A DNA stretch of 64,000 nt. Source: the human T2T-CHM13v2.0 reference genome, Homo sapiens. Shown one piece after another: positions 1 through 46,915 of this stretch (position 1 is the stretch's first letter; the number at the start of each line of letters is the position of its first letter). The translations under genes and the position numbers were made by a program. Location of the stretch: the NCBI RefSeq assembly GCF_009914755.1, contig NC_060925.1; one strand, 5' to 3'. The notes below the pieces were generated by a model. It was not told the origin of the DNA. It did not search any database and saw only the letters and a program-made list of their open reading frames with translations.

Positions 1-925
1 TTACCAAGATCTTTCTTCCTCTTCTCTTTTATACTCTGGGCTGGAGCCAAATGGAGCTGCTTCAAATCCTGAACTGGCCTTTCTCTCTACTGTTTCCTGG
101 CCTATGTATAGACTGTTCCCTCCGCCTGGGGTTCTCTTGTGTGTCTTCCTCCTTCCACGTACCCTCCCGCCTTGCTCTCTCTACTATTTGGCTACCTCCC
201 CCTAGCTAACTCCTATTCAACCTTCAAGTCTATACAAGGATTCTGCAGGGAACCCTTTCCTCATGCCTCAGGTCTGATGCAGCCCACACAGCCCTCTGCT
301 CTGTGCTTACTTCAGCCTAGCATGTATCTTGCTTATGGAACCTGATTGCTCATCCATAACCCTTTCTAGAATGTAACTTCCTTAAGAATAGAACTCTGCC
401 TTATTCTCAGTTGCAATCCTAGCACCTAGCACAGAGCCAGACAAATAGTAGATAGTAAATTTTTACTGAATGAATGAATACACAAATATAAAGAAAATGT
501 ATATTTGATATTATGGAAATAAAACATAGGTATGAAGAGAAATATTTTACCTAAAATACATATATTTTAGGGTAAGTAGACATTATTTTTGTGTGTTACA
601 TTATTCATATCACTGTTATCCTACATTAAGAAATACAGGTATATTACTTTAGATATCATTTGAAGAAAACATAGACTCCATGTAGGAAGGCTTGGTATGT
701 GGAAGATATGAAGTGTGATTTTTTTTCTCCCATGGGAATCAATACAATTATTGATGTTAATAACAACAAGAACAACCATTAATAATATGTTCAATACATA
801 TGTAGTATTTTTGGTTGGAAAAATGGAAACCAAAGGTCTCCTGTTTATTGAAATTATAATTTTCTTCTAGAGTTTCTACACAGGACTAGGCATCAGAAAA
901 CATATGTTCCAAAAGTGTGTCAAGG

Positions 926-939
926 GTCACCATGGAAAC
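926..939. promoter_or_regulatory. RFX X-box GTCACCATGGAAAC (candidate distal promoter/enhancer)
   Basis: Matches the X-box consensus GTNRCC-AT-GGNAAC in unique sequence. Followed by two GTGAGT donors (995, 1163). Confidence 0.55.
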
Positions 940-1869
940 CACAGGGCACAACATTTGTGTCCCAGGCTTCTGGAACACTAAGGACCGAAAGAACGTGAGT
1001 GAGAGCAGGGGAATTTAGGAATCCATTGAGGATGCCTGAATGGGGTTGTTGGCCCTGATCACACTCTAGAGACAGGCATATCATCACAGGCAATCAGAAA
1101 TGAAGAAGGACATTAACTTGTACCCTGTGGAATTGTCTTCAGTTGATAAAAAGGACTTCTCTGTGAGTGTATATTTTAATTATGCTGTTAGCTAGGAGTC
1201 AATTAAATTACAATACCTAGATCCAAATAGTCGTATTCATTTGAGACTTGTGAAAATTAGATTTTGGAAACAAGTTAGTAGTTCTTAATCTATGCTTAAT
1301 ATTAATAATATTTGTATTTATTAATATAAATGCTAGGCTGTATTTGTACAGCATCACATTTGTACACAGTGTCTAGCATCTCAGCATGACACTCTCATTT
1401 AATTTTACTGTTATTCTTGTGAGTTAGAAATTATTATAATTTCTATTTAATATCAGAAGAAACAGAGTCCAAAATAATGCATACAGTTGGTGGGAGAGAG
1501 ATACCTGAAAACCAGGCTTCTGATTACAAATCCAGCATTTTTTCCACTACTCCAGGCTACAAAGTAACTGATTTATGAATCCAGATGATTCACATGAGTT
1601 CATCTCCTCACATTTTAATTACTCATTTATTTATACATTCTCCAAATACATACTGAGCATGTATTTTGTGTGTTTCCTCATTTATAAAATGGAAATAATA
1701 ATATACCTACCTGATAGGCAACCAATGTAAGAACTGAGATGTAAATTGCTGTGCTTGGTTTTAAATGAAACCGAACTATTAACTACTATTATTTTCCTGC
1801 TAGAAATATGTAGAGTAGAAACATTATTAAATGTGCACATGGAAGTGAACATTCAAAACTTTAGATTAC

Positions 1870-2206
<337 letters not shown>

Positions 2207-2326
2207 TCACTAATATTTCTCAGCATGGCTATGGTGGTGATGGCTGGAGAAGAGTGGTGTGGGGAATATTATCTATTTTTGTAGTAAAAATGTTCACTTA
2301 TTTTTTCTGTAAAAAGAGTATGAATG

Positions 2327-2627
2327 GCGTGGGTGCGGTGGCTCCCACCTGCAATCTCAGCACTTTGGGAGGTCGAGGCAGGAGAAACTGGCTCTAGCCC
2401 AGAACCTCAAGACCAGCCTGGGCATCATAGTGGGACCCTGTCTCTACAAAAAATTAAACAATTAGCCAAATGCAGTGGCTCATGTCTGTAGTCTCAGCTA
2501 CTCTGGAGCCTGAGATGGGGGAATCATTCAAGCTTAGGAGGTTGAGGTTGCAGTGACCTGTGATAGTGTCACTACACTCCAGCTTGGGTGACACAGCGAG
2601 ACTCTGTCTCAAAAAAAAAAAAAAAAA
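2327..2627 (+). mobile_element. Alu (J-like)
   Basis: Diverged dimeric Alu with poly(A). Confidence 0.9.
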
Positions 2628-3980
2628 GTAGTAATGACAAATAAATATAGATGGATAAATTCTGTAAAATTTAAAAAATGTATTGAGTTGTTAACTTGTT
2701 TGTTAAGTATAGCAAACTGGACAATAAATTGACTACTCTGAAGTATATTGACCTCATGGAACTTTCTTTTACCTTCTAAAACTGCACCATTCTTTATTGA
2801 CTGCATTAGTCAAGAAGGAGATGAATATTGAATTGACTTGTTTTACTTAATGTTCACTATACCAGTATTTCTTAAACTGTATTTTGTAGAATGCTGGTAT
2901 ACCATTCCATTAATAAATCACAGGGTTAGAAACAATTGAAATTTTTATAGAAGCCACACAAAAACAATAGCAATGGCAGATAATGCAACATCTTATATTG
3001 TTTCATTCGGAGATTATTTCAATATTTCCTCTAAATATCTTGAAGAAAATAGTTCTAGATATTATGCATACATTATTATTGACACTTTATGGCTAATGTG
3101 TAATAATCTATAAGTTAAACAATGTAATTTAAGCTCACTAGGGAAAAATTAAGAAAAGGTTGTTGATACTACAGCAAATAATGAATACTGGTCTTATTTC
3201 CACCAGCTATGTGAGTTTGGGAAATCAGTTACCTCCTTCTCTTTTTTTCTCTTTTATTTTGCCATATAACCTTTTATAAAGGAACTATTGTGTAGAAGCC
3301 TTGAGTGCTCATCCACTGCCTTCCACTCCTACCCCCATATTGGGCCTGTGCTAAATCCCTTGAGTTTGATGGAGTCTGTTTGAAAACTGGAACTAGCTGA
3401 TCTCCCAGGTCCCTTCTGGTTTTTACTTCTTTGATTCTGGTTTGGAATTCTTAAACAGGCATTGGTGATTTGTCTGATACAGAATGTGGCTGGGTTAGGC
3501 TAAGGTCTTATCATTTGCGGGCAGACTTCTGGAACAGAACCGTTTATGAGTCATGCTATCTATTTTTGGTATTCTGGTTCTACTGTAATAACTTTTTTAT
3601 TACATGTATTTTACTAAAAGCTGCTTAAAATTATTTTTGGGATCAAAAATTGTCAAAATATGTATATGAATAAATAATTCAAATTACCTTGAATTTCAAA
3701 TTACTCAGTGGCACAGGTTTTTACTACGTTTCATACTTAATCTGAAAATTAATTTACAGAAAGAATTCAAAGTATGTATTCTATATTTTCTTTACGTTCT
3801 TTGGTAACTTTGTATCACTACTGAACAAACAACTAAAAGAGTATGTTCTAATGATACATTCTAATAAGAAATGATGATAATTTTAAAATAATACAATATG
3901 TAAACCACACAGCTGTCAGGCCTTTGACAATCTTGAGCTCATTTTTCCTTGCCCTCTTCCAGCAAGAAAGAATATTTTCC

Positions 3981-4503
<523 letters not shown>

Positions 4504-4890
4504 TCACTAGTCTGCATCCAGTTCTGGGACCCACTTAGTAAGCAATTGGACAAATGGGCAGAGACTGGACTGGAAAGTGAGGGGCTTGAAGCCATGTAAT
4601 ATAAGACAATGTAGAAGAAAATGGAGATATTTATCTGGGGAAGACTAAGGAGAAATGGAAGGTGTTCAAGGAAACTGCCTTTGCATTTTTGAAGAGCTGT
4701 CATGAGTAAGGGTGATCATAGGTCCTGCAGCCTCCAGGCAGAATTAGAACTAGTGGCTTTTGACATAATTTAGAGCTGCCTCCAGCAGTGAGTTTTCTAG
4801 AACTGCAGGTGCACAAGCACGGGTTGCAGGGTAGTTGAAGCAGTTTTCAAGCAATGGTTGAGGAGTTAGATTTAAATTTTGTCATTTTCA

Positions 4891-5188
<298 letters not shown>

Positions 5189-5624
5189 GGCGTTGTTTTC
5201 AAACTCGACACTTTTTACACTTACCTGCTGAATTTCTGTGTGTAATATTACCTTCCTTTTGTGCAGTTGAGCGATATGTAAACTCTCTTAGTATTTCCTT
5301 TATATGTGAAACGCCTTTATTGTTTCTTAAAAGTCCATTCCTTAAGTTTATATCAAGTTTCGTGGTTGGAAAATTTTCTTCCATTATCTTCCCTTGTAGA
5401 CTGTAAAAGTATGCCTTTATTATGAAACTACAACCAACAGGAACTTTGACCTCAGGATAACTGAGAGAATAAAGTGTTTTTATGATCTCATTAGAACCTT
5501 GGTATGTATTATACGTGTGCTGTGTGTGCATTATCTAGTTCATATTTTTCTTGTAGAATTTTCTATACCATTTAGAATGGCTTAGAGAGATTTGATTATA
5601 CTGACACTTCCTTCCATGCAATTT

Positions 5625-6372
5625 TGTTGTTGTTTGTTTGAGACAGGGTCTCACTCTGTCACCCAGAGACACTGCACTGCTGGAGTGCAGTGGCATAATC
5701 ACGTAATCACAGCTCACTGAAACCTCTGCCTCCCGGTTCAAGCCATTCTCCCGCCTCGGCCTCATGAGTAGCTGGGATTGCAGGTGCCCGCCACCACATC
5801 TGGCTAATTTTTTTTTGAGACGGGGTCTTTCTCTGTCGCCCAGGCTGGAGTGCCGTGGCACTATCTCGGCTCACTGCAACCTCCCGAGTAGCTGGGATTA
5901 CAGGCGTGTGCCACCACACCCGGCTAAGTTTTGTATTTTTTTTTTTTTGAAACATAGTTTTGCTCTTGTCACCCAGGCTGTAGCACAATGATGCGATCTT
6001 GGCTCACTGCAACCTCCGCCTCCCAGGTTCAAGCCATTCTTCTGCCTCAGCCTCCCTAGTAGCTGGGATTACAGGTGTGTGCCACCATTCCTGGCTAATT
6101 TTTTTGTATTATTAGTAGAGTTGGGGGTTTCACCATGTTGGCCAGGCTGGTCTCGAACTCCTGCCCTCAGGTGATCCACCTGCCTCGGCCTCCCCAAGTG
6201 CTGGGATTACAGGCATGAGCCACCGCGCCCAGACAAGTTTTGTATTTTTTTAAGTAGAGGCAAGGTTTCGCCATGTTGGCCAGGATGGTCTTGAACTCCT
6301 GACCTCAGGTGATCCGCAGGCCTTGGCCTCCCAAAGTGCTGTAATTACAGGTGTGAGCCACCATGACCAGCC
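5625..6372 (-). mobile_element. Composite/nested Alu cluster
   Basis: Several right arms and two left arms in tandem. One full Alu (~5935-6232) is nested in the linker of another (AAGTTTTGTATTTTTT repeated on both sides). Confidence 0.9.
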
Positions 6373-6891
6373 CCATGCAATATTTTAAAAAACATTAATT
6401 ACTTACAGAGTTTTATTATCTTTGTAAAAATGCTAAGGAAAAATAAACATTTTCATTTGAATTTAAGGACTTGTATTTGTTAGGTCATAATTCATTCCTC
6501 ATGATCACAATTTTAAGCAGGAGAGTTATATAAAAGATTTTTGTAAATTCATTTTGGAAAATAACAAGAAGGTGTTCAACTATATCTGGCTTCTCTGAAA
6601 GTGTAGATTGGAGTTCATTAGACTATTTACTTTGTGCAATTAAAAGTTTATGAACTGAATGAGAACTCTGACTTCTATTTCTAACGCACTTTTTAATGAA
6701 AAATTGTTGGGGAATTTGAATTTAGATTATGCAAGAATTTTAAATCAGCATCTTCGGAAATACAACAACATCTTTGGATTTATTTAGCCTTTTAAACAAA
6801 GTGGGCAAGTTTATCGAGAGATTCATATACTTTGTTTTTCCCTATCTTTCATATAAGAAATACTAGATTTTTTTTCAATAAAATAATTTGA

Positions 6892-7200
6892 GGCCTGGCG
6901 CGGTGGCTCAGCCTGTAATCCCAGCGCTGTGGCAGGCCAAGGCAGGGCGGATTGCTTGTGCTCAGGAACTGGAGACGAGCCTGGCCAACATGGCAAAACC
7001 CGGTCTCTACAAAAAATACAAAAATTAGCCGGGTGTGGTGGCGCACGCCTGTAGATCCAACTATTTGGGAGAATGAGGCACGAGAATCGCTTGTACTCGG
7101 GAGGTGGAGATTGCAGTGAGCAGAGATTGAGCCACCGCACTCCGGCCTGGGTGACAGAGCGAGACCCTGTCTAAAACAAAACACACATTAAAAAAAAAAA
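6892..7200 (+). mobile_element. Alu, CpG-retaining, at the edge of the CpG island
   Basis: Dimeric Alu with many intact CpGs. Confidence 0.93.
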
Positions 7201-7736
7201 AACCACAAACAAAACCTGCAATTGGCCCTCGAAGGGCTGGTTCCCTCAGTCAGCTCTGCACGGGTGCGCCCCCTTTCTCCCTAGAGGTCAACAAGCGACT
7301 GCGAAGGAAAACGCCGCCACAAGTTTCTTGCTGTTTCTGGAGAGACCTCTCAGAGCGCATGCTCTTCGGATAGTCGGTCTGTAGCGCCATTTTCGTATGG
7401 AAGGGACTGCACTCTGATTAGGTACAGCCTTAGGACGCCCAGCGTTCAAGTTGTTCAAACAGTACGTAGAGCCTCGCAGAGACAAGTCAATGGCCTCTTT
7501 TAGCGGGACTCCTGCCTGGAGCGCTTCAGCTGAGACTATGTAAAGAAATTCCTTTGTGTTAACCTTCCTCCTTGGACCAGTGGACTCTCCTCTTTCTCCT
7601 GTTCCCTCCGCGCCCGCCCAGGCTGGCTCAGCGGTCTCGCCCCGCCCCTCCGGGACCGGAGCACTGTAAAGATTAGGCATCTGTGATGCTTTTGCGCTCA
7701 CATTGGCGGCCCAGATGAGAGGGCGTGGAGAACCAG

Positions 7737-7788
7737 ATGGGAAACTTTTTGTCCCGTGAGAACAAAGTACAAGTTATATCAGAGTCTG
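7737..7788 (+). CDS. CDC14A: Candidate alternative first coding exon of CDC14A: MGNFLSRENKVQVISES(D), in frame with exon 2
   Basis: ATG at 7737 (+4 G) with an in-frame upstream stop at 7716-7718, 17 open codons + G, then donor CTG|gtatgt at 7789. Phase 1 matches the exon 2 acceptor and regenerates GAT (Asp) exactly like canonical exon 1. Confidence 0.7.
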
Positions 7789-7951
7789 GTATGTGTAGAG
7801 GAAACCAATACATGTACTGTGAGCTAGGAGCTGGTGCTTCTTTTTCAATTGTATTTTTTATAAAGATGCAGACCCCCTCAGTGTTGGGCGTGGGGGGTGG
7901 CTGAAATGTTAGCTAGAGGCGAGGCAGGGCACGGAGATCTGAGGTTTTTAC

Positions 7952-7954
<3 letters not shown>

Positions 7955-7990
<36 letters not shown>

Positions 7991-7994
7991 CGCG
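7955..7994. repeat. (TG)14(CG)6 alternating purine-pyrimidine microsatellite
   Basis: Read directly. Confidence 0.95.
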
Positions 7995-8574
7995 CCCTAC
8001 AAGAGTTTAGAAGAGCATGGGTGAGTGGGCGAGAAAGAAAGAGAATGAGAGAGAGAGAGAAAAGAAATCTGGAGTGGGACAAGACTTAGAGGGTGCAGAA
8101 AAGAAAGGGGGCGCCAGCACATCCTAGCCTCCGAGGCCGCGACAGCGCCTTTGGCGATGTCCACTCTCAACCCCGCCGTTTCATTCATAAGTTTCTGGCC
8201 TACAGGCCCCGCCCGCTCCCCTGGGCCGAGGGCCCCGTTTCCTGAACAGCAATTGGTGGACGGCAACAAAGCCTTAGCAACCGGCTCCTAGTGACCCGCG
8301 GGGCGCCTGGTAACTGGGGCTGCTGCGGAGAAAGGAGCGGGGCTGTCCCTTTAAGGGATGGCCGCGGAGTCGTGAAAGTGGAGGGGGCTGAGGGAGGGCG
8401 GGGAGGAAGGTCTGGGGGCGGACCCAGGGGGAGGAGGAGGAGGAAGAGTAACTGCTGAAAGGAGGTGGCGAAGGAGGATCCGGAGCAGCTGCTGCCAGCC
8501 CGCGGGCACTGAAGTCCTCCCGGCTGCCGCTCGAGTAGCCACGGGCGCGATCGGGACCAGAAGTCTCCTCCTCC

Positions 8575-8931
8575 ATGATCACTTTGGAAGCCGGGGGAAC
8601 ACTTTGCCCTGCCCTGAGAGCTGGTCTGCGTTTCCCAGGCGCGGCGGCGGCGGAGCAGCAGCTGCAGCAGCCGAGTCCAAATAGGAGCGGCCACAGCCAG
8701 GGGCGTGTGCGCCCCGCGCGGAGCGAGCTCGGGTTCCCCTCGGAATGTCCCCGGGGCGCCCGGCGCGCTGACCCCGAAGCCGCCTCCGCCTTCGGCGCCT
8801 GCTGCCTCCCTCGGCCAGGCTTGTTGTTCGGGACTGTGAGCTTCCTGGCTCCTGGGCAGTGGGGAAGCCCCCGGGGGCGAGTGACCTCAGCTGGCCACGA
8901 CCCAGCCCTCCCCCGTGCGTATCTCGCTTAA
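8575..8931 (+). other. Long uORF (118 codons) in the canonical 5' leader, ending TAA one base before the main ATG
   Basis: ATG 8575, TAA 8929-8931, then g-ATG 8933. Relevance depends on the TSS lying upstream of 8575. Confidence 0.5.
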
Positions 8932-8932
8932 G

Positions 8933-8981
8933 ATGGCAGCGGAGTCAGGGGAACTAATCGGGGCTTGTGAGTTCATGAAAG
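8933..8981 (+). CDS. CDC14A: CDC14A canonical coding exon 1 (MAAESGELIGACEFMK + first base of D)
   Basis: aagATGG start at 8933. Translation matches the N-terminus of CDC14A as I recall it. Donor AAG|gtgagg at 8982. 49 nt, phase 1. Confidence 0.97.
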
Positions 8982-9726
8982 GTGAGGAGCAGCCGCCCCG
9001 CATCTTCCAACGCTTTCTTGCCCCCAACTCTTCACTTCCCGCGCCACTGTCCCCACCTTCTCCTGAGGCTGCCAGTGTCCTGCAGCCGCTGCGCGCGCTC
9101 TCGTCCCCTCTAGGGACTCTCCTTTCTCCGAGGACCCCCTGCTTCCGGCTTCTCTTTCTTGTGTCCCTTGCTCCCTCTGCAGCTCCCTCGGATGGCCTCT
9201 CGGCCTCGTAATGGGACAGCACCGGCTTCTGCCCGTACTCCGGCACTCAGCAGCTCATGGGGAGCCTGCTCCGGATGCTCACCGGTCACCTTTACTCCAC
9301 CATCGCAGGCTTCGGTTTTCGGGACACCCCCAACCACACCCCCCAAGTCTCTCTCCCTTCCTCTTTTTCAAATCTCCGAAGCTGCGTCGGGAGGCTCACC
9401 TCTTTCTTCCCCTTCTCGCAGCTGCTGAGGTCTGGAGATTTGGGAACCAAACTTGCACCTCCAGTTCTGCGGGTACCCCCAGCTCCTGCCTACTCTGCTG
9501 GCCTGAAACAAGGGAAATGTGGGTGCTCTGAGCCCCGCTGAGTTCCTCGGTCAGGTCCTCCTCTTGCCTAACTGTTGTGCTCTTGAGTCTCTAGCTTTCT
9601 GGGAGGGATGAGGTTTCTGCAAGAATTCCACGTGTTAATGGGGTCTTTAAATTGTGATCCTTCGTATGTTACCACCCACCTTCACTTCCACTTCTCTACT
9701 TCTCATATGTTTTTTCTGTCTTTTAA

Positions 9727-9831
<105 letters not shown>

Positions 9832-12244
9832 TAAGTTTATGTTTTGTTTTTTTTTCTCTTGGCCATTCAGCTTGTTCTTTGACGAGGAAACACTATGCAC
9901 TTTTATGGCAGTTTTATTCATTTCCCCCCCAATGATACGAGTAACAATATCAATTTTTTAAGACTCAGGTGCCTGGGGAGAAGTTCAGAGAAAATTGACA
10001 GAATTTGAACCTTTCAACACTTCAGTTCTTTTAGACATCTATCTGTTTTAGTTCTTCCTACCACCACAACAAACAGCAACTGGAGATTCCTAACATTCCC
10101 CAGAGTAGGACCAGGGAGACACACTGTCATTGCCAGACTCAGTAATTGGCCTGTGAATCAGTCACTAAGTATTTATGGAGTGGCCATAGGGTACAGGGCA
10201 GTGCATGTATTACAGGTGCTTGAGCTTTATAGTTTACAAGACTTCTGTTCTATCTCAGGATGTTTTTGTTTGTGCAGCTCTTTTTCAGAAAGTGGGACAC
10301 ATTAACTGCGGGGAGCTGTATCAGAGTCACATTTATGACTAACATTTTATCTGACATATTATTGATTCTTTTATTTGGGTACCCCAAACTTTTTGATATT
10401 ATTTTCTTTGCTTCTAAGGAAATGATATAGCAGTGCTGATTTATTTTCTTTGATTACTTTGCTTCTGTGGGATTAGGATTTGAGAGTGTAAAATAAAAGT
10501 AGGGAACTGTTTTCTGTGAAAGACCACTGATCTACAGGAAAAAGATATCTTAATACTTCAGGCATAGTAAAACATTAATTGAAGAGAGATAAATCTTTAT
10601 TCAGTAAAAGTATCAGATAATAAGAAATAAGAAGGCTGAATTGACTTGGTTATGTACTTTTATGAAAAGAGCTGGTGTTTCAGAGGAGTCTAATATATTC
10701 TATTTTAAACGTTTAAATTACTTGTTATCTTTACCAAATGTGCAGATAAATGAACATAGTTAAATTAATCATAATTAGCTTCCTTGGACTTGTCTTGTTA
10801 GAAAGGTTATTGGCAGTTCTGCCTAAGGATTTGTGGGTACTACCAGGTCTTCGAAGAGTAAGTGTTCTGGACCTTCAAGAGCATATCTTTTATTTGGGGG
10901 AAAACAATCTTTGTCACTTCATCATAGAGGTTCTTGAAACTGAGGTCTGCGACATTTCTCTTAGTGGTGCTGGGAGGAGAATGCTTCTTGAATGGCTAAA
11001 GTAAGAGTGGGAATGAAAGAGCCCTTTGCTGCTGCTCATGAATGCCCAGAGTTGCTGAGGCAAAGAGGTCTGAGTCCCTGGTGTCAGATTACAGCTCTGC
11101 TTCTAGACAGGATGGAGTTATGTGCGGCTGTGTACCTGGATGATGTCACTGCCAGCAGTGTTTATTGAGTGTTCACTCTGTTGTTGGGAATGTGCATTGT
11201 TGTGCCTCTGTTTTTGTGATTTTAGGTTTTGGGGGTCTCTCATGAGTCTGAGAGTGGGGATGGTGTATATATCATTATGTTCAATTCTACAGTACAGTGG
11301 TTGTTAATATGTCATTGAATGAGCTCTAGCCATGGAGATCTGAGTCACTTCTCTTGGGATTGCTAGGTGGTAGATCTAGCAGAAAATTAAGCCAAACTAA
11401 ACACTGTGCATGATGGCTTTTTGATTTTAATATTGATAGATGAGGGAAATTTTTAATGTGATTTTCATGTTGGTATTTTGGGATAGGCCTACAAATCATA
11501 TTCCTCTTATAGTCTACTGTTTTTCTGGTATCTTATAAGGAAAGACTTGCTGGAGAAACCATCCAATTTATATTGTGAGTTGGGATTGACATTTGAAATA
11601 CGATGAGGACTTCAGCCTGGGCAGAGTGTGTACTTTTCTTAGTTTGAACTTACCCTACTGTGCCACAGTAATGGCTGTGGCTCTGACACCTCCAACTCCA
11701 TCTTTTTTGTTACCCCAACATATTACATGGTGCTAGGTGATGCAGAGAATAAAACAATGTTGAATGCATATGTTACCTTCAAAGAGCTCCAAGCCTGTAG
11801 GGAAAATAACAGAACTGCAGTTTGAGGTATAGGAAAGATACCTGCCCAAAGAGAAATACAACCTCTATGCTAGGAGAGGCATTCACAGGCAGGTAGGGGC
11901 ACATCTGGTGGAAGGGTTCAGCAAAGGCTTCGTGGAAGAGTTAAGATTGGCTTGAAGGATGGACAAGGTCTTATCAGGCAGAGACATGAGAGGAGGGATC
12001 TTGGAAAACAGCAAGTGTGAGGAGGGGAGAGGCTTGGGACGTGTGTTCAGGGAACAGTAAGTCCTCCAGTTTGCCTGGTGTGTATTCAGGGAACATGTAG
12101 GGGATGGAGAATGTGAAATTGAGATGTTGGCTGGGGACAGAATGAATGTCAGGGTGAGAAACCTGCAGTTTCTTTGGTACACCATGGGACTCTTGAGGGA
12201 TTTGGGGCAGCCATGGTATGACTTGATTTGTGCTAATTACAAAC

Positions 12245-33493: not shown

Positions 33494-33634
<141 letters not shown>

Positions 33635-46711: not shown

Positions 46712-46915
<204 letters not shown>

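What the first reader, a model, noticed from the sequence alone, without database searches (positions are those of the whole stretch)
7737..7788. Alternative first exon giving CDC14A an N-myristoylation-type start (MGNFLS...)
Seen: 1.2 kb upstream of the canonical ATG, an ATG opens MGNFLSRENKVQVISES-G|gtatgt. The phase-1 donor joins exon 2 to give ...[12 protein letters not shown], replacing the canonical 16 residues with 17. The exon is too short for the ORF track. Established: M-G-x-x-x-S followed by a basic residue is the N-myristoyltransferase consensus; myristoylated cargo such as NPHP3 and cystin enters cilia via UNC119/ARL3; CDC14A acts at centrosome and cilia and is mutated in deafness/male infertility. 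Inference: promoter choice could switch the phosphatase between a soluble and a lipid-anchored, possibly ciliary, form. The transcript may already be annotated, but I do not know of its lipidation being characterised.
Basis: partly seen in the sequence, partly recalled or inferred. Interest (0 to 1): 0.85.

Follow-up and report, generated by a model that had tools for sequence, protein, structure and literature searches.

The report
Unsupported myristoylation-type upstream start for CDC14A
A short upstream reading frame that could give the CDC14A phosphatase a lipid-attachment start is really in the DNA, but no annotation or paper checked supports its use, and chance produces such arrangements often.

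Summary
The sequence facts hold. ATG 7737 opens a 17-codon frame, followed by G 7788 and GTATGT. Joined to exon 2 at 9740 it stays in the CDC14A frame and replaces the 16 canonical residues. The start fits the N-myristoylation pattern.

Nothing shows that the exon is used. It is in none of the six RefSeq transcripts (hub table). No paper found links CDC14A to myristoylation, and CDC14A is absent from two myristoylome supplements.

The arrangement is not beyond chance. An equivalent candidate arises in 35 of 1000 shuffles of the region upstream of exon 2 and in 63 of 300 shuffles of the whole window.

The ciliary idea fits poorly. High-affinity UNC119 cargo needs small or medium residues at positions 3-5; here positions 4 and 5 are Phe and Leu. 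The peptide has no cysteine and no basic cluster as a second membrane signal.

RNA-seq junctions, transcription start data and cross-species conservation could not be tested with these tools.

Best reading: a chance frame in the accessible upstream flank of the CDC14A promoter (0.62). A real myristoylated isoform remains possible (about 0.1). It would be a new member of a known kind, like the CYB5R3 promoter switch.

The parts
7737..7788 (+). Candidate coding part of a putative alternative first exon: ATG, 16 further codons, then the first base (G) of a split codon
   Evidence: Not in any RefSeq transcript (hub table).
7789..7794 (+). Candidate 5' splice site, GTATGT after CTG
   Evidence: crude matrix score 3.33, against 0.83-7.72 for the five annotated donors. 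16 of 501 GT sites upstream of exon 2 score at least as high.
7737..7904 (+). The same frame read without splicing: a 55-aa ORF ending in TGA
   Evidence: No Pfam family. No protein match among longer proteins.
7686..7718 (+). Upstream ATG in frame with 7737, 10 codons, closed by TGA 7716-7718
7715..7759 (+). Upstream out-of-frame ATG, 14 codons, overlapping the 7737 ATG. It would compete for scanning ribosomes if transcription starts further upstream.
7585..7621 (+). Long pyrimidine tract ending in CAG: an acceptor-like site that could make 7622-7788 a 167-base internal exon. It may equally be a CT-rich, GC-box promoter element.
   Evidence: score 10.95, against 3.86-9.23 for three annotated acceptors. 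2 of 646 AG sites upstream of exon 2 score as high.
7614..7706 (.). Promoter-like motifs just upstream of the ATG: CCGCCC at 7614 and 7642, ATTGG (inverted CCAAT) at 7702, and an initiator-like TCACATT with its A at 7700
   Evidence: consensus motifs recalled. The RefSeq 'enhancer' features 7243-7672 and 7713-7762 overlap (hub table).
9740..9830 (+). CDC14A exon 2, the acceptor the candidate donor would have to use
   Evidence: Hub table. Matches CDC14A structure 9rib, residues 17-45.
8933..8981 (+). Canonical coding part of exon 1: 16 codons plus G, with the same phase-1 donor logic
   Evidence: Hub table.
8017..8026 (+). Second in-frame mini start: ATG+G followed by GTGAGT, with A at -3 and G at +4. 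It shows that in-frame ATG-donor pairs recur upstream of exon 2.
   Evidence: donor score 4.68.

Best explanation
The 7737-7788 frame is a fortuitous ATG-to-GT arrangement. It lies in the accessible, CpG-rich upstream flank of the CDC14A promoter, about 750 bases before the annotated transcription start at 8484. That DNA most likely acts as regulatory sequence; RefSeq marks it as enhancer-type. Any 7788->9740 splicing would be low-level noise from scattered upstream starts. No distinct, functionally used myristoylated CDC14A isoform is made from it.

Shown: the sequence arrangement, its absence from RefSeq, and its chance frequency. Inferred: that it is not used.
For: - Absent from all six RefSeq transcripts. 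The only other 5' exon listed is 980-1162 (hub table).
- Chance level: 35 of 1000 shuffles for the region upstream of exon 2, and 63 of 300 for the whole window. The scan covers very many windows.
- In-frame ATG-donor pairs are common here. Of the 16 donors upstream of exon 2 scoring at least as high as the candidate, 3 have an open in-frame ATG in phase 1: 7788, 8020 and the canonical 8981. A second Met-Gly frame (ATG 9257, donor 9518) also occurs at a laxer donor cut-off.
- The start context is only moderate (C at -3). Two ATGs lie 22 and 51 bases upstream, and one of their frames overlaps the start.
- The site overlaps RefSeq enhancer-type features and GC-box/CCAAT motifs (hub table), which fits promoter or enhancer DNA.
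- No literature trace. The CDC14A papers read in passages (PMC6982189; PMC12796106) speak of six RefSeq transcripts that differ in exons 11-15, not at the N-terminus.
- CDC14A is not in the supplements of PMC4550359 or PMC4200515.
Against: - The donor is usable by my crude score. It beats two of the five annotated donors.
- The exon sits directly behind promoter-like motifs, with an initiator-like site at 7700, in DNA that RefSeq lists as active (hub table).
- A very strong acceptor-like site at 7621|7622 would also allow a 167-base internal exon.
- The local chance figure of 3.5% is not large if only this gene is considered.
- The residues encoded by exon 1 lie before the first globular domain (17-152), so an N-terminal swap is plausible for the fold.
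- The negatives are weak. RefSeq is not GENCODE. Mass-spectrometry studies cannot find a peptide missing from their database. The protein search looks at 90%-identity clusters, and I did not establish that the collection holds vertebrate proteins.
Confidence: 0.62

Rival explanations
1. A real alternative first exon, unannotated in RefSeq. A minor promoter around 7600-7700 starts a transcript whose first usable ATG is 7737. Splicing 7788->9740 yields CDC14A with a new 17-residue N-terminus. Met is removed and Gly2 is myristoylated by NMT1/2. This gives weak, reversible membrane affinity rather than a stable anchor, and probably not UNC119/ARL3-type ciliary sorting.
For: - Frame, phase and donor are correct.
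- The pattern G-{EDRKHPFYW}-x(2)-[STAGCN]-{P} is met (regex; pattern recalled from PROSITE), with Arg at position 7.
- The supplements of Thinon 2014 list ARF1/ARF3 (MGNIF...) and ARL1 (MGGFFS...) among the YnMyr-profiled proteins. I saw their rows and N-terminal sequences there, not their confidence class; that they are myristoylated is recalled. This suggests Asn3 and bulky residues at 4/5 before Ser6 are tolerated.
- GC boxes, an inverted CCAAT and an initiator-like site lie 35-125 bases upstream, in DNA marked active (hub table).
- The principle exists: CYB5R3 makes a myristoylated and a soluble form from two promoters (abstract of PMC2289487).
- CDC14A is reported in kinocilia, basal bodies and stereocilia and is needed for hearing and male fertility (passages), so a membrane-proximal pool would have a use.
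Against: - Not in RefSeq (hub table), and no print trace.
- Chance-level arrangement.
- Upstream ATGs and C at -3.
- Phe4 and Leu5 break the UNC119 high-affinity rule.
- No Cys and no basic cluster for a second membrane signal.
- Canonical residues 7/8-16 are ordered in the crystal, and a 14-345 construct was insoluble in E. coli, so the canonical N-terminus may matter for folding.
Confidence: 0.12
2. The stretch is transcribed and spliced but not as a productive coding start. It could be a non-coding leader from scattered upstream starts, or an internal 167-base exon (7622-7788) in transcripts from the 980-1162 promoter. Upstream reading frames then absorb most ribosomes, and 7737 acts at best as a rarely used start.
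For: - A strong acceptor-like site at 7621|7622 lies 167 bases before the donor.
- RefSeq already has transcripts starting at 980-1162 (hub table).
- That exon holds three ATGs: 1032, 1040 and 1100.
- By my own reading of the sequences shown, the frame of ATG 1100 stays open to the end of that exon and, joined to 7622, would stop at TAA 7667-7669.
- Further ATGs at 7686 and 7715 precede 7737.
Against: - No annotation of such an exon (hub table).
- A pyrimidine tract with GC boxes is equally expected in a promoter.
- With 3 such acceptors and 16 such donors in 9.7 kb, a donor within 50-300 bases behind a given acceptor is expected about 0.4 times by chance (my arithmetic).
Confidence: 0.2

Closest known systems
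NADH-cytochrome b5 reductase (CYB5R3): myristoylated membrane form and soluble erythroid form from alternative promoters (PMC2289487, abstract seen)
   Same: One gene, a shared catalytic body, and alternative 5' exons that add or remove an N-terminal myristoylation consensus.
   Different: In CYB5R3 both transcripts and proteins are demonstrated, and the myristoylated form also has a hydrophobic anchor stretch. For CDC14A neither the transcript nor the protein has been shown, and the peptide has no hydrophobic stretch or second signal.
High-affinity UNC119 cargo (NPHP3, GNAT1, LCK) released by ARL3 in cilia or at the immunological synapse (PMC8246649, passages seen)
   Same: N-terminal Met-Gly with Ser at position 6. 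CDC14A is reported at kinocilia and basal bodies.
   Different: The published motif needs small or medium residues at 3, 4 and 5 because these are buried in the pocket. The candidate has Asn3, Phe4 and Leu5. At most it would be a low-affinity cargo, which the paper says goes to other membranes.
ARF/ARL-type myristoylated N-termini (ARF1/ARF3 MGNIF..., ARL1 MGGFFS...) listed in the supplements of Thinon 2014
   Same: Gly2, Asn or Gly at 3, bulky hydrophobic residues at 4/5, and a small residue at 6.
   Different: In ARFs the following residues form an amphipathic helix coupled to the GTP switch (recalled). The candidate continues with a polar, net-neutral stretch.
RefSeq CDC14A variants that start at the upstream exon 980-1162 (hub table)
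   Same: An alternative promoter upstream of the main one, spliced into the common body of the gene.
   Different: That exon is annotated. It lies 6.6 kb further upstream. By my reading, it does not supply an in-frame start for exon 2: the frame of ATG 1100 hits a stop early in exon 2.

Membership tests
Annotated CDC14A exon (RefSeq RS_2025_08 on T2T-CHM13) | Coordinates belong to an exon of one of the six listed transcripts | tested here: not met
   The hub table lists 8484-8981, 9740-9830, 33526-33601, 46712-46804 and 980-1162 only. GENCODE/Ensembl could not be consulted.
Functional alternative first coding exon | ATG open to a GT donor whose phase matches the next exon | tested here: met
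   phase 1, the same split codon G|AT as the canonical exon 1.
Functional alternative first coding exon | Donor of usable strength | tested here: inconclusive
   crude matrix with recalled frequencies gives 3.33, fourth of six when ranked with the five annotated donors. No MaxEnt-type model was on hand.
Functional alternative first coding exon | Transcription start upstream and junction reads to exon 2 | not testable with these tools
   No human RNA-seq, CAGE or cDNA collection is held. Only motif hints are available.
Functional alternative first coding exon | Conservation of ATG, frame and donor in other mammals | not testable with these tools
   The genome collections held are described as prokaryotic and viral. 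The protein search found nothing, but it looks at 90%-identity clusters and I did not check that it holds vertebrates.
Co-translational NMT substrate | Met-Gly start fitting G-{EDRKHPFYW}-x(2)-[STAGCN]-{P} (pattern recalled from PROSITE PS00008) | tested here: met
   One search gives the peptide. The regex accepts it. Arg at position 7.
Co-translational NMT substrate | Myristate actually attached (labelling, mass spectrometry) | not testable with these tools
   CDC14A is absent from the supplements of PMC4550359 and PMC4200515. Neither study could have seen an unannotated N-terminus.
UNC119/ARL3 high-affinity ciliary cargo | Small or medium residues at positions 3, 4 and 5 | tested here: not met
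   Rule from passages of PMC8246649. The peptide has Asn3, Phe4 and Leu5.
Stably membrane-anchored myristoylated protein (two-signal rule, recalled) | Second signal: nearby Cys for palmitoylation or a basic cluster | tested here: not met
   no Cys in the 17 residues. Basic residues are Arg7 and Lys10; acidic residues are Glu8 and Glu16.

The most novel reading that the evidence does not exclude
CDC14A has a promoter-selected isoform, missing from RefSeq, that begins with the 17 residues encoded at 7737-7787 and is N-myristoylated. The lipid gives a reversible membrane-proximal pool of the phosphatase, for example at the apical hair-cell surface, the base of the kinocilium or the sperm flagellum. 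It would work as a low-affinity cargo rather than a classical UNC119/ARL3 ciliary cargo. It would be the first lipidated CDC14 known to me: no paper held links the two.
Probability: 0.08. Interest if true: 0.6.

Novelty: not a real feature. Interest (0 to 1): 0.22.

Why it matters
CDC14A loss causes deafness with or without male infertility, and where the phosphatase sits in the cell is thought to set its substrates (passages of PMC12796106). A lipidated isoform chosen by promoter use would add a new localisation mechanism, and variants in this exon would matter for diagnosis.

As it stands, the candidate is a sequence coincidence without expression support, so it should not enter variant interpretation or isoform models. 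One cheap look at public junction, CAGE and conservation tracks would settle it.

Tried and rejected
- **Key CDC14A papers:** Imtiaz 2018 (PMC6059191) and Delmaghani 2016 (PMC4908234) are not held. Their isoform figures, and any 5' end data they may contain, were not seen.
- **Protein database, ORF query:** the contiguous 55-aa unspliced ORF, searched against longer proteins, gave 41 word-sharing candidates and none at E <= 10. I treat this as uninformative, because of the 90% clustering and because I did not establish that the collection holds vertebrate proteins. I ran no further search on it.
- **Literature:**
  - 'CDC14A' + 'myristoyl' gave 7 papers, seen as a listing only; none concerns CDC14A lipidation by title or abstract.
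  - 'MGNFLS' gave 0 papers.
  - 'CDC14A' + 'alternative first exon' gave 2 unrelated papers (the turkey paper was checked).
  - 'CDC14A' + 'alternative promoter' gave 9 papers. One was checked and is unrelated; the rest look unrelated by title.
  - 'hCdc14A' + 'splice' + 'exon' was also searched. PMC4687116 was checked and says nothing on 5' exons.
- **Other searches on the region:** Rfam on 6500-10000 found only Alu-like SRP matches at 6893-7175. Pfam found nothing for the 55-aa ORF or for the 130-aa minus-strand ORF 7288-7680.
- **Not attempted:** folding or searching the spliced protein, because that would need a joined sequence.
- **Internal cassette exon 7622-7788:** considered and not adopted as the main reading. 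The acceptor-donor pairing is within chance, and the upstream frames would block translation.

Full report
**1. What is in the sequence**

- ATG 7737-7739 opens MGNFLSRENKVQVISES. The next base, G 7788, is followed by GTATGT.
- Exon 2 starts at 9740 behind a ...tttcag acceptor. The split codon G|AT reads Asp, just as at the canonical donor after 8981.
- The new frame therefore flows into the CDC14A body, and 17 residues replace the canonical 16.
- Exon 2 (9742-9828) matches residues 17-45 of the solved CDC14A chain 9rib at E 2.7e-13.
- The canonical ATG (8933) lies 1196 bases downstream.

**2.

- Without splicing, the frame continues to a TGA at 7902-7904, a 55-aa ORF. It has no Pfam match.
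- An in-frame TGA at 7716-7718 closes the frame upstream.
- Two ATGs precede the start. ATG 7686 is in frame, has 10 codons and ends at 7716. ATG 7715 is out of frame, has 14 codons and overlaps 7737.
- The start context is C at -3 and G at +4, which is moderate.
- The peptide has no cysteine. It has two basic residues (Arg7, Lys10) and two acidic residues (Glu8, Glu16).

**3. Surroundings**

- The site lies about 750 bases upstream of the annotated start of exon 1 (8484), in DNA of 50-57% G+C with CpG observed/expected of 0.5-0.8. This leads into the CpG-rich core at 8200-9000.
- RefSeq marks 7243-7672 and 7713-7762 as enhancer-type elements (hub table).
- Motif matches, with consensus motifs recalled:
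  - CCGCCC boxes at 7614 and 7642.
  - An inverted CCAAT at 7702.
  - An initiator-like TCACATT with its A at 7700.
  - Further upstream, a YY1-like site on the minus strand at 7385.
- An Alu-like element (Rfam SRP matches) ends at 7175.
- A (GT)14.5 microsatellite lies at 7954-7982, followed by a short GC run.
- A long pyrimidine tract ending in CAG at 7585-7621 scores as a very strong acceptor on a crude scale: 10.95 against 3.86-9.23 for three annotated acceptors, and 2 of 646 AG sites upstream of exon 2 score as high. So 7622-7788 could in principle be a 167-base internal exon for transcripts from the RefSeq upstream exon 980-1162.
- That exon carries ATGs at 1032, 1040 and 1100. By my reading of the sequences, the frame of ATG 1100 stays open to the exon's end and would then stop at TAA 7667-7669. 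ATG 7737 would therefore sit behind several upstream frames.
- The minus strand has a 130-aa ORF (7288-7680) with no Pfam match. I take it as a by-product of G+C-rich sequence.

**4. Is it more than chance?**

I scored donors with a simple position matrix whose frequencies I recalled, so the scores are relative only.
- The candidate scores 3.33. The five annotated donors of the window score 0.83, 2.18, 4.27, 4.55 and 7.72.
- Sixteen of 501 GT sites upstream of exon 2 reach the candidate's score. Three of those 16 have an open in-frame ATG in phase 1: this one, ATG 8017 + G 8020 | GTGAGT, and the canonical exon.
- I then asked how often a shuffled sequence (first-order Markov within 1-kb blocks) contains an ATG-Gly frame that fits the myristoylation pattern and runs open to an equally good donor in the right phase.
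  - In 1-9739: 35 of 1000 shuffles, or 78 of 1000 at a laxer donor cut-off.
  - For all four regions of the window that precede an annotated acceptor, each with its own phase: 63 of 300 shuffles. The real window has one such candidate.
- A reader screening whole windows, many of them, will therefore meet such arrangements regularly. The arrangement alone carries little weight.

**5. Evidence on use**

- The exon is in none of the six RefSeq transcripts (hub table).
- Literature searches:
  - 'MGNFLS' occurs in 0 papers.
  - CDC14A and 'myristoyl' co-occur in 7 papers, seen as a listing only; none concerns CDC14A lipidation by title or abstract.
  - 'alternative first exon' and 'alternative promoter' with CDC14A gave only unrelated papers.
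  - A last search on 'hCdc14A', 'splice' and 'exon' also gave nothing on 5' exons.
- The recent CDC14A papers I could read in passages describe six RefSeq transcripts differing in exons 11-15 (PMC12796106; PMC6982189).
- The two papers most likely to show 5' exon structure are not held (Imtiaz 2018 and Delmaghani 2016).
- CDC14A does not occur in the supplements of two myristoylome studies (PMC4550359; PMC4200515). Neither could have detected an N-terminus absent from its clone set or database.
- A protein search with the 55-aa ORF found nothing. It is uninformative for the reasons given under Tried and rejected.
Use and conservation remain untested.

**6. If the protein were made, what would it do?**

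- Gly2, Asn3, Ser6 and Arg7 fit the NMT pattern (recalled from PROSITE; regex).
- ARF1/ARF3 (MGNIF...) and ARL1 (MGGFFS...) appear in the supplements of Thinon 2014. I saw their rows and N-terminal sequences there, not their confidence class. This suggests that Asn3 and bulky residues at 4/5 are tolerated, so myristoylation of such a protein is likely.
- The ciliary route is not likely. High-affinity UNC119 cargo, which ARL3 releases in cilia or at the immunological synapse, needs small or medium residues at 3, 4 and 5, because these are buried in the pocket (PMC8246649). Phe4 and Leu5 do not fit.
- Without a cysteine or a basic cluster, one myristate gives only weak, reversible membrane binding (two-signal rule, recalled).
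- On the fold:
  - The first globular domain is given as residues 17-152, which favours tolerance of an N-terminal swap.
  - Canonical residues 7/8-16 are ordered in the crystal, and a 14-345 construct was insoluble in E. coli, which counsels caution.

**7. Comparison with what is known**

- A promoter switch between a myristoylated and a non-myristoylated form of one enzyme is established for NADH-cytochrome b5 reductase (abstract of PMC2289487).
- From memory only, the same holds for the sperm-specific against the somatic catalytic subunit of protein kinase A.
- If real, the CDC14A case would be a new member of that kind, not a new kind.

**8. Verdict**

The interpretation cannot be decided here and leans negative.
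- Best reading: a chance frame in promoter-flanking regulatory DNA (0.62).
- Rival: transcribed but not productively translated (0.20).
- Rival: a real myristoylated isoform (0.12), with ciliary UNC119 sorting a small fraction of that.
- A look at public junction, CAGE, GENCODE and conservation tracks would settle the matter quickly.

Noticed in passing
window 8017-8026 (+): ATG 8017-8019 plus G 8020 is followed directly by GTGAGT. The start context is strong (A at -3, G at +4) and the donor scores higher than the candidate's (4.68). Spliced to exon 2 it would also be in frame, giving a CDC14A that lacks the canonical N-terminal residues. It is not in RefSeq.
   Followed up: partly
window 7585-7621 (+): A 35-base pyrimidine tract ending in CAG scores as a stronger acceptor than the three annotated acceptors of the window on a crude scale. 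It may be a cryptic 3' splice site for transcripts from the 980-1162 promoter, or simply a CT-rich, GC-box promoter element.
   Followed up: partly
window 7954-7996: A perfect (GT)14.5 microsatellite is followed by a short alternating GC run, between the candidate exon and the main promoter. It is likely polymorphic and prone to forming Z-DNA (the latter recalled).
   Followed up: no
window 6893-7175 (+): Two sub-threshold Rfam matches to metazoan SRP RNA (49.7 and 30.5 bits against a gathering score of 70) indicate an Alu-type element that ends just before the RefSeq enhancer feature at 7243.
   Followed up: no
window 9257-9518 (+), intron 1: A second Met-Gly frame of 87 codons reaches a weak phase-1 donor at 9518. 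It does not fit the myristoylation pattern (Arg at position 6). It illustrates how easily such frames arise in this G+C-rich region.
   Followed up: no
window 980-1162 (+): The RefSeq upstream exon holds three ATGs (1032, 1040, 1100). By my reading, the frame of ATG 1100 stays open to the exon's end and stops early in exon 2 when joined to 9740. These variants therefore carry upstream reading frames ahead of their annotated downstream start.
   Followed up: partly
window 7385-7394 (-): A YY1-type motif on the minus strand, with a GCGCATGC half-site at 7355, lies inside the 7243-7672 enhancer feature. This may hint at divergent (antisense) transcription from this element.
   Followed up: no
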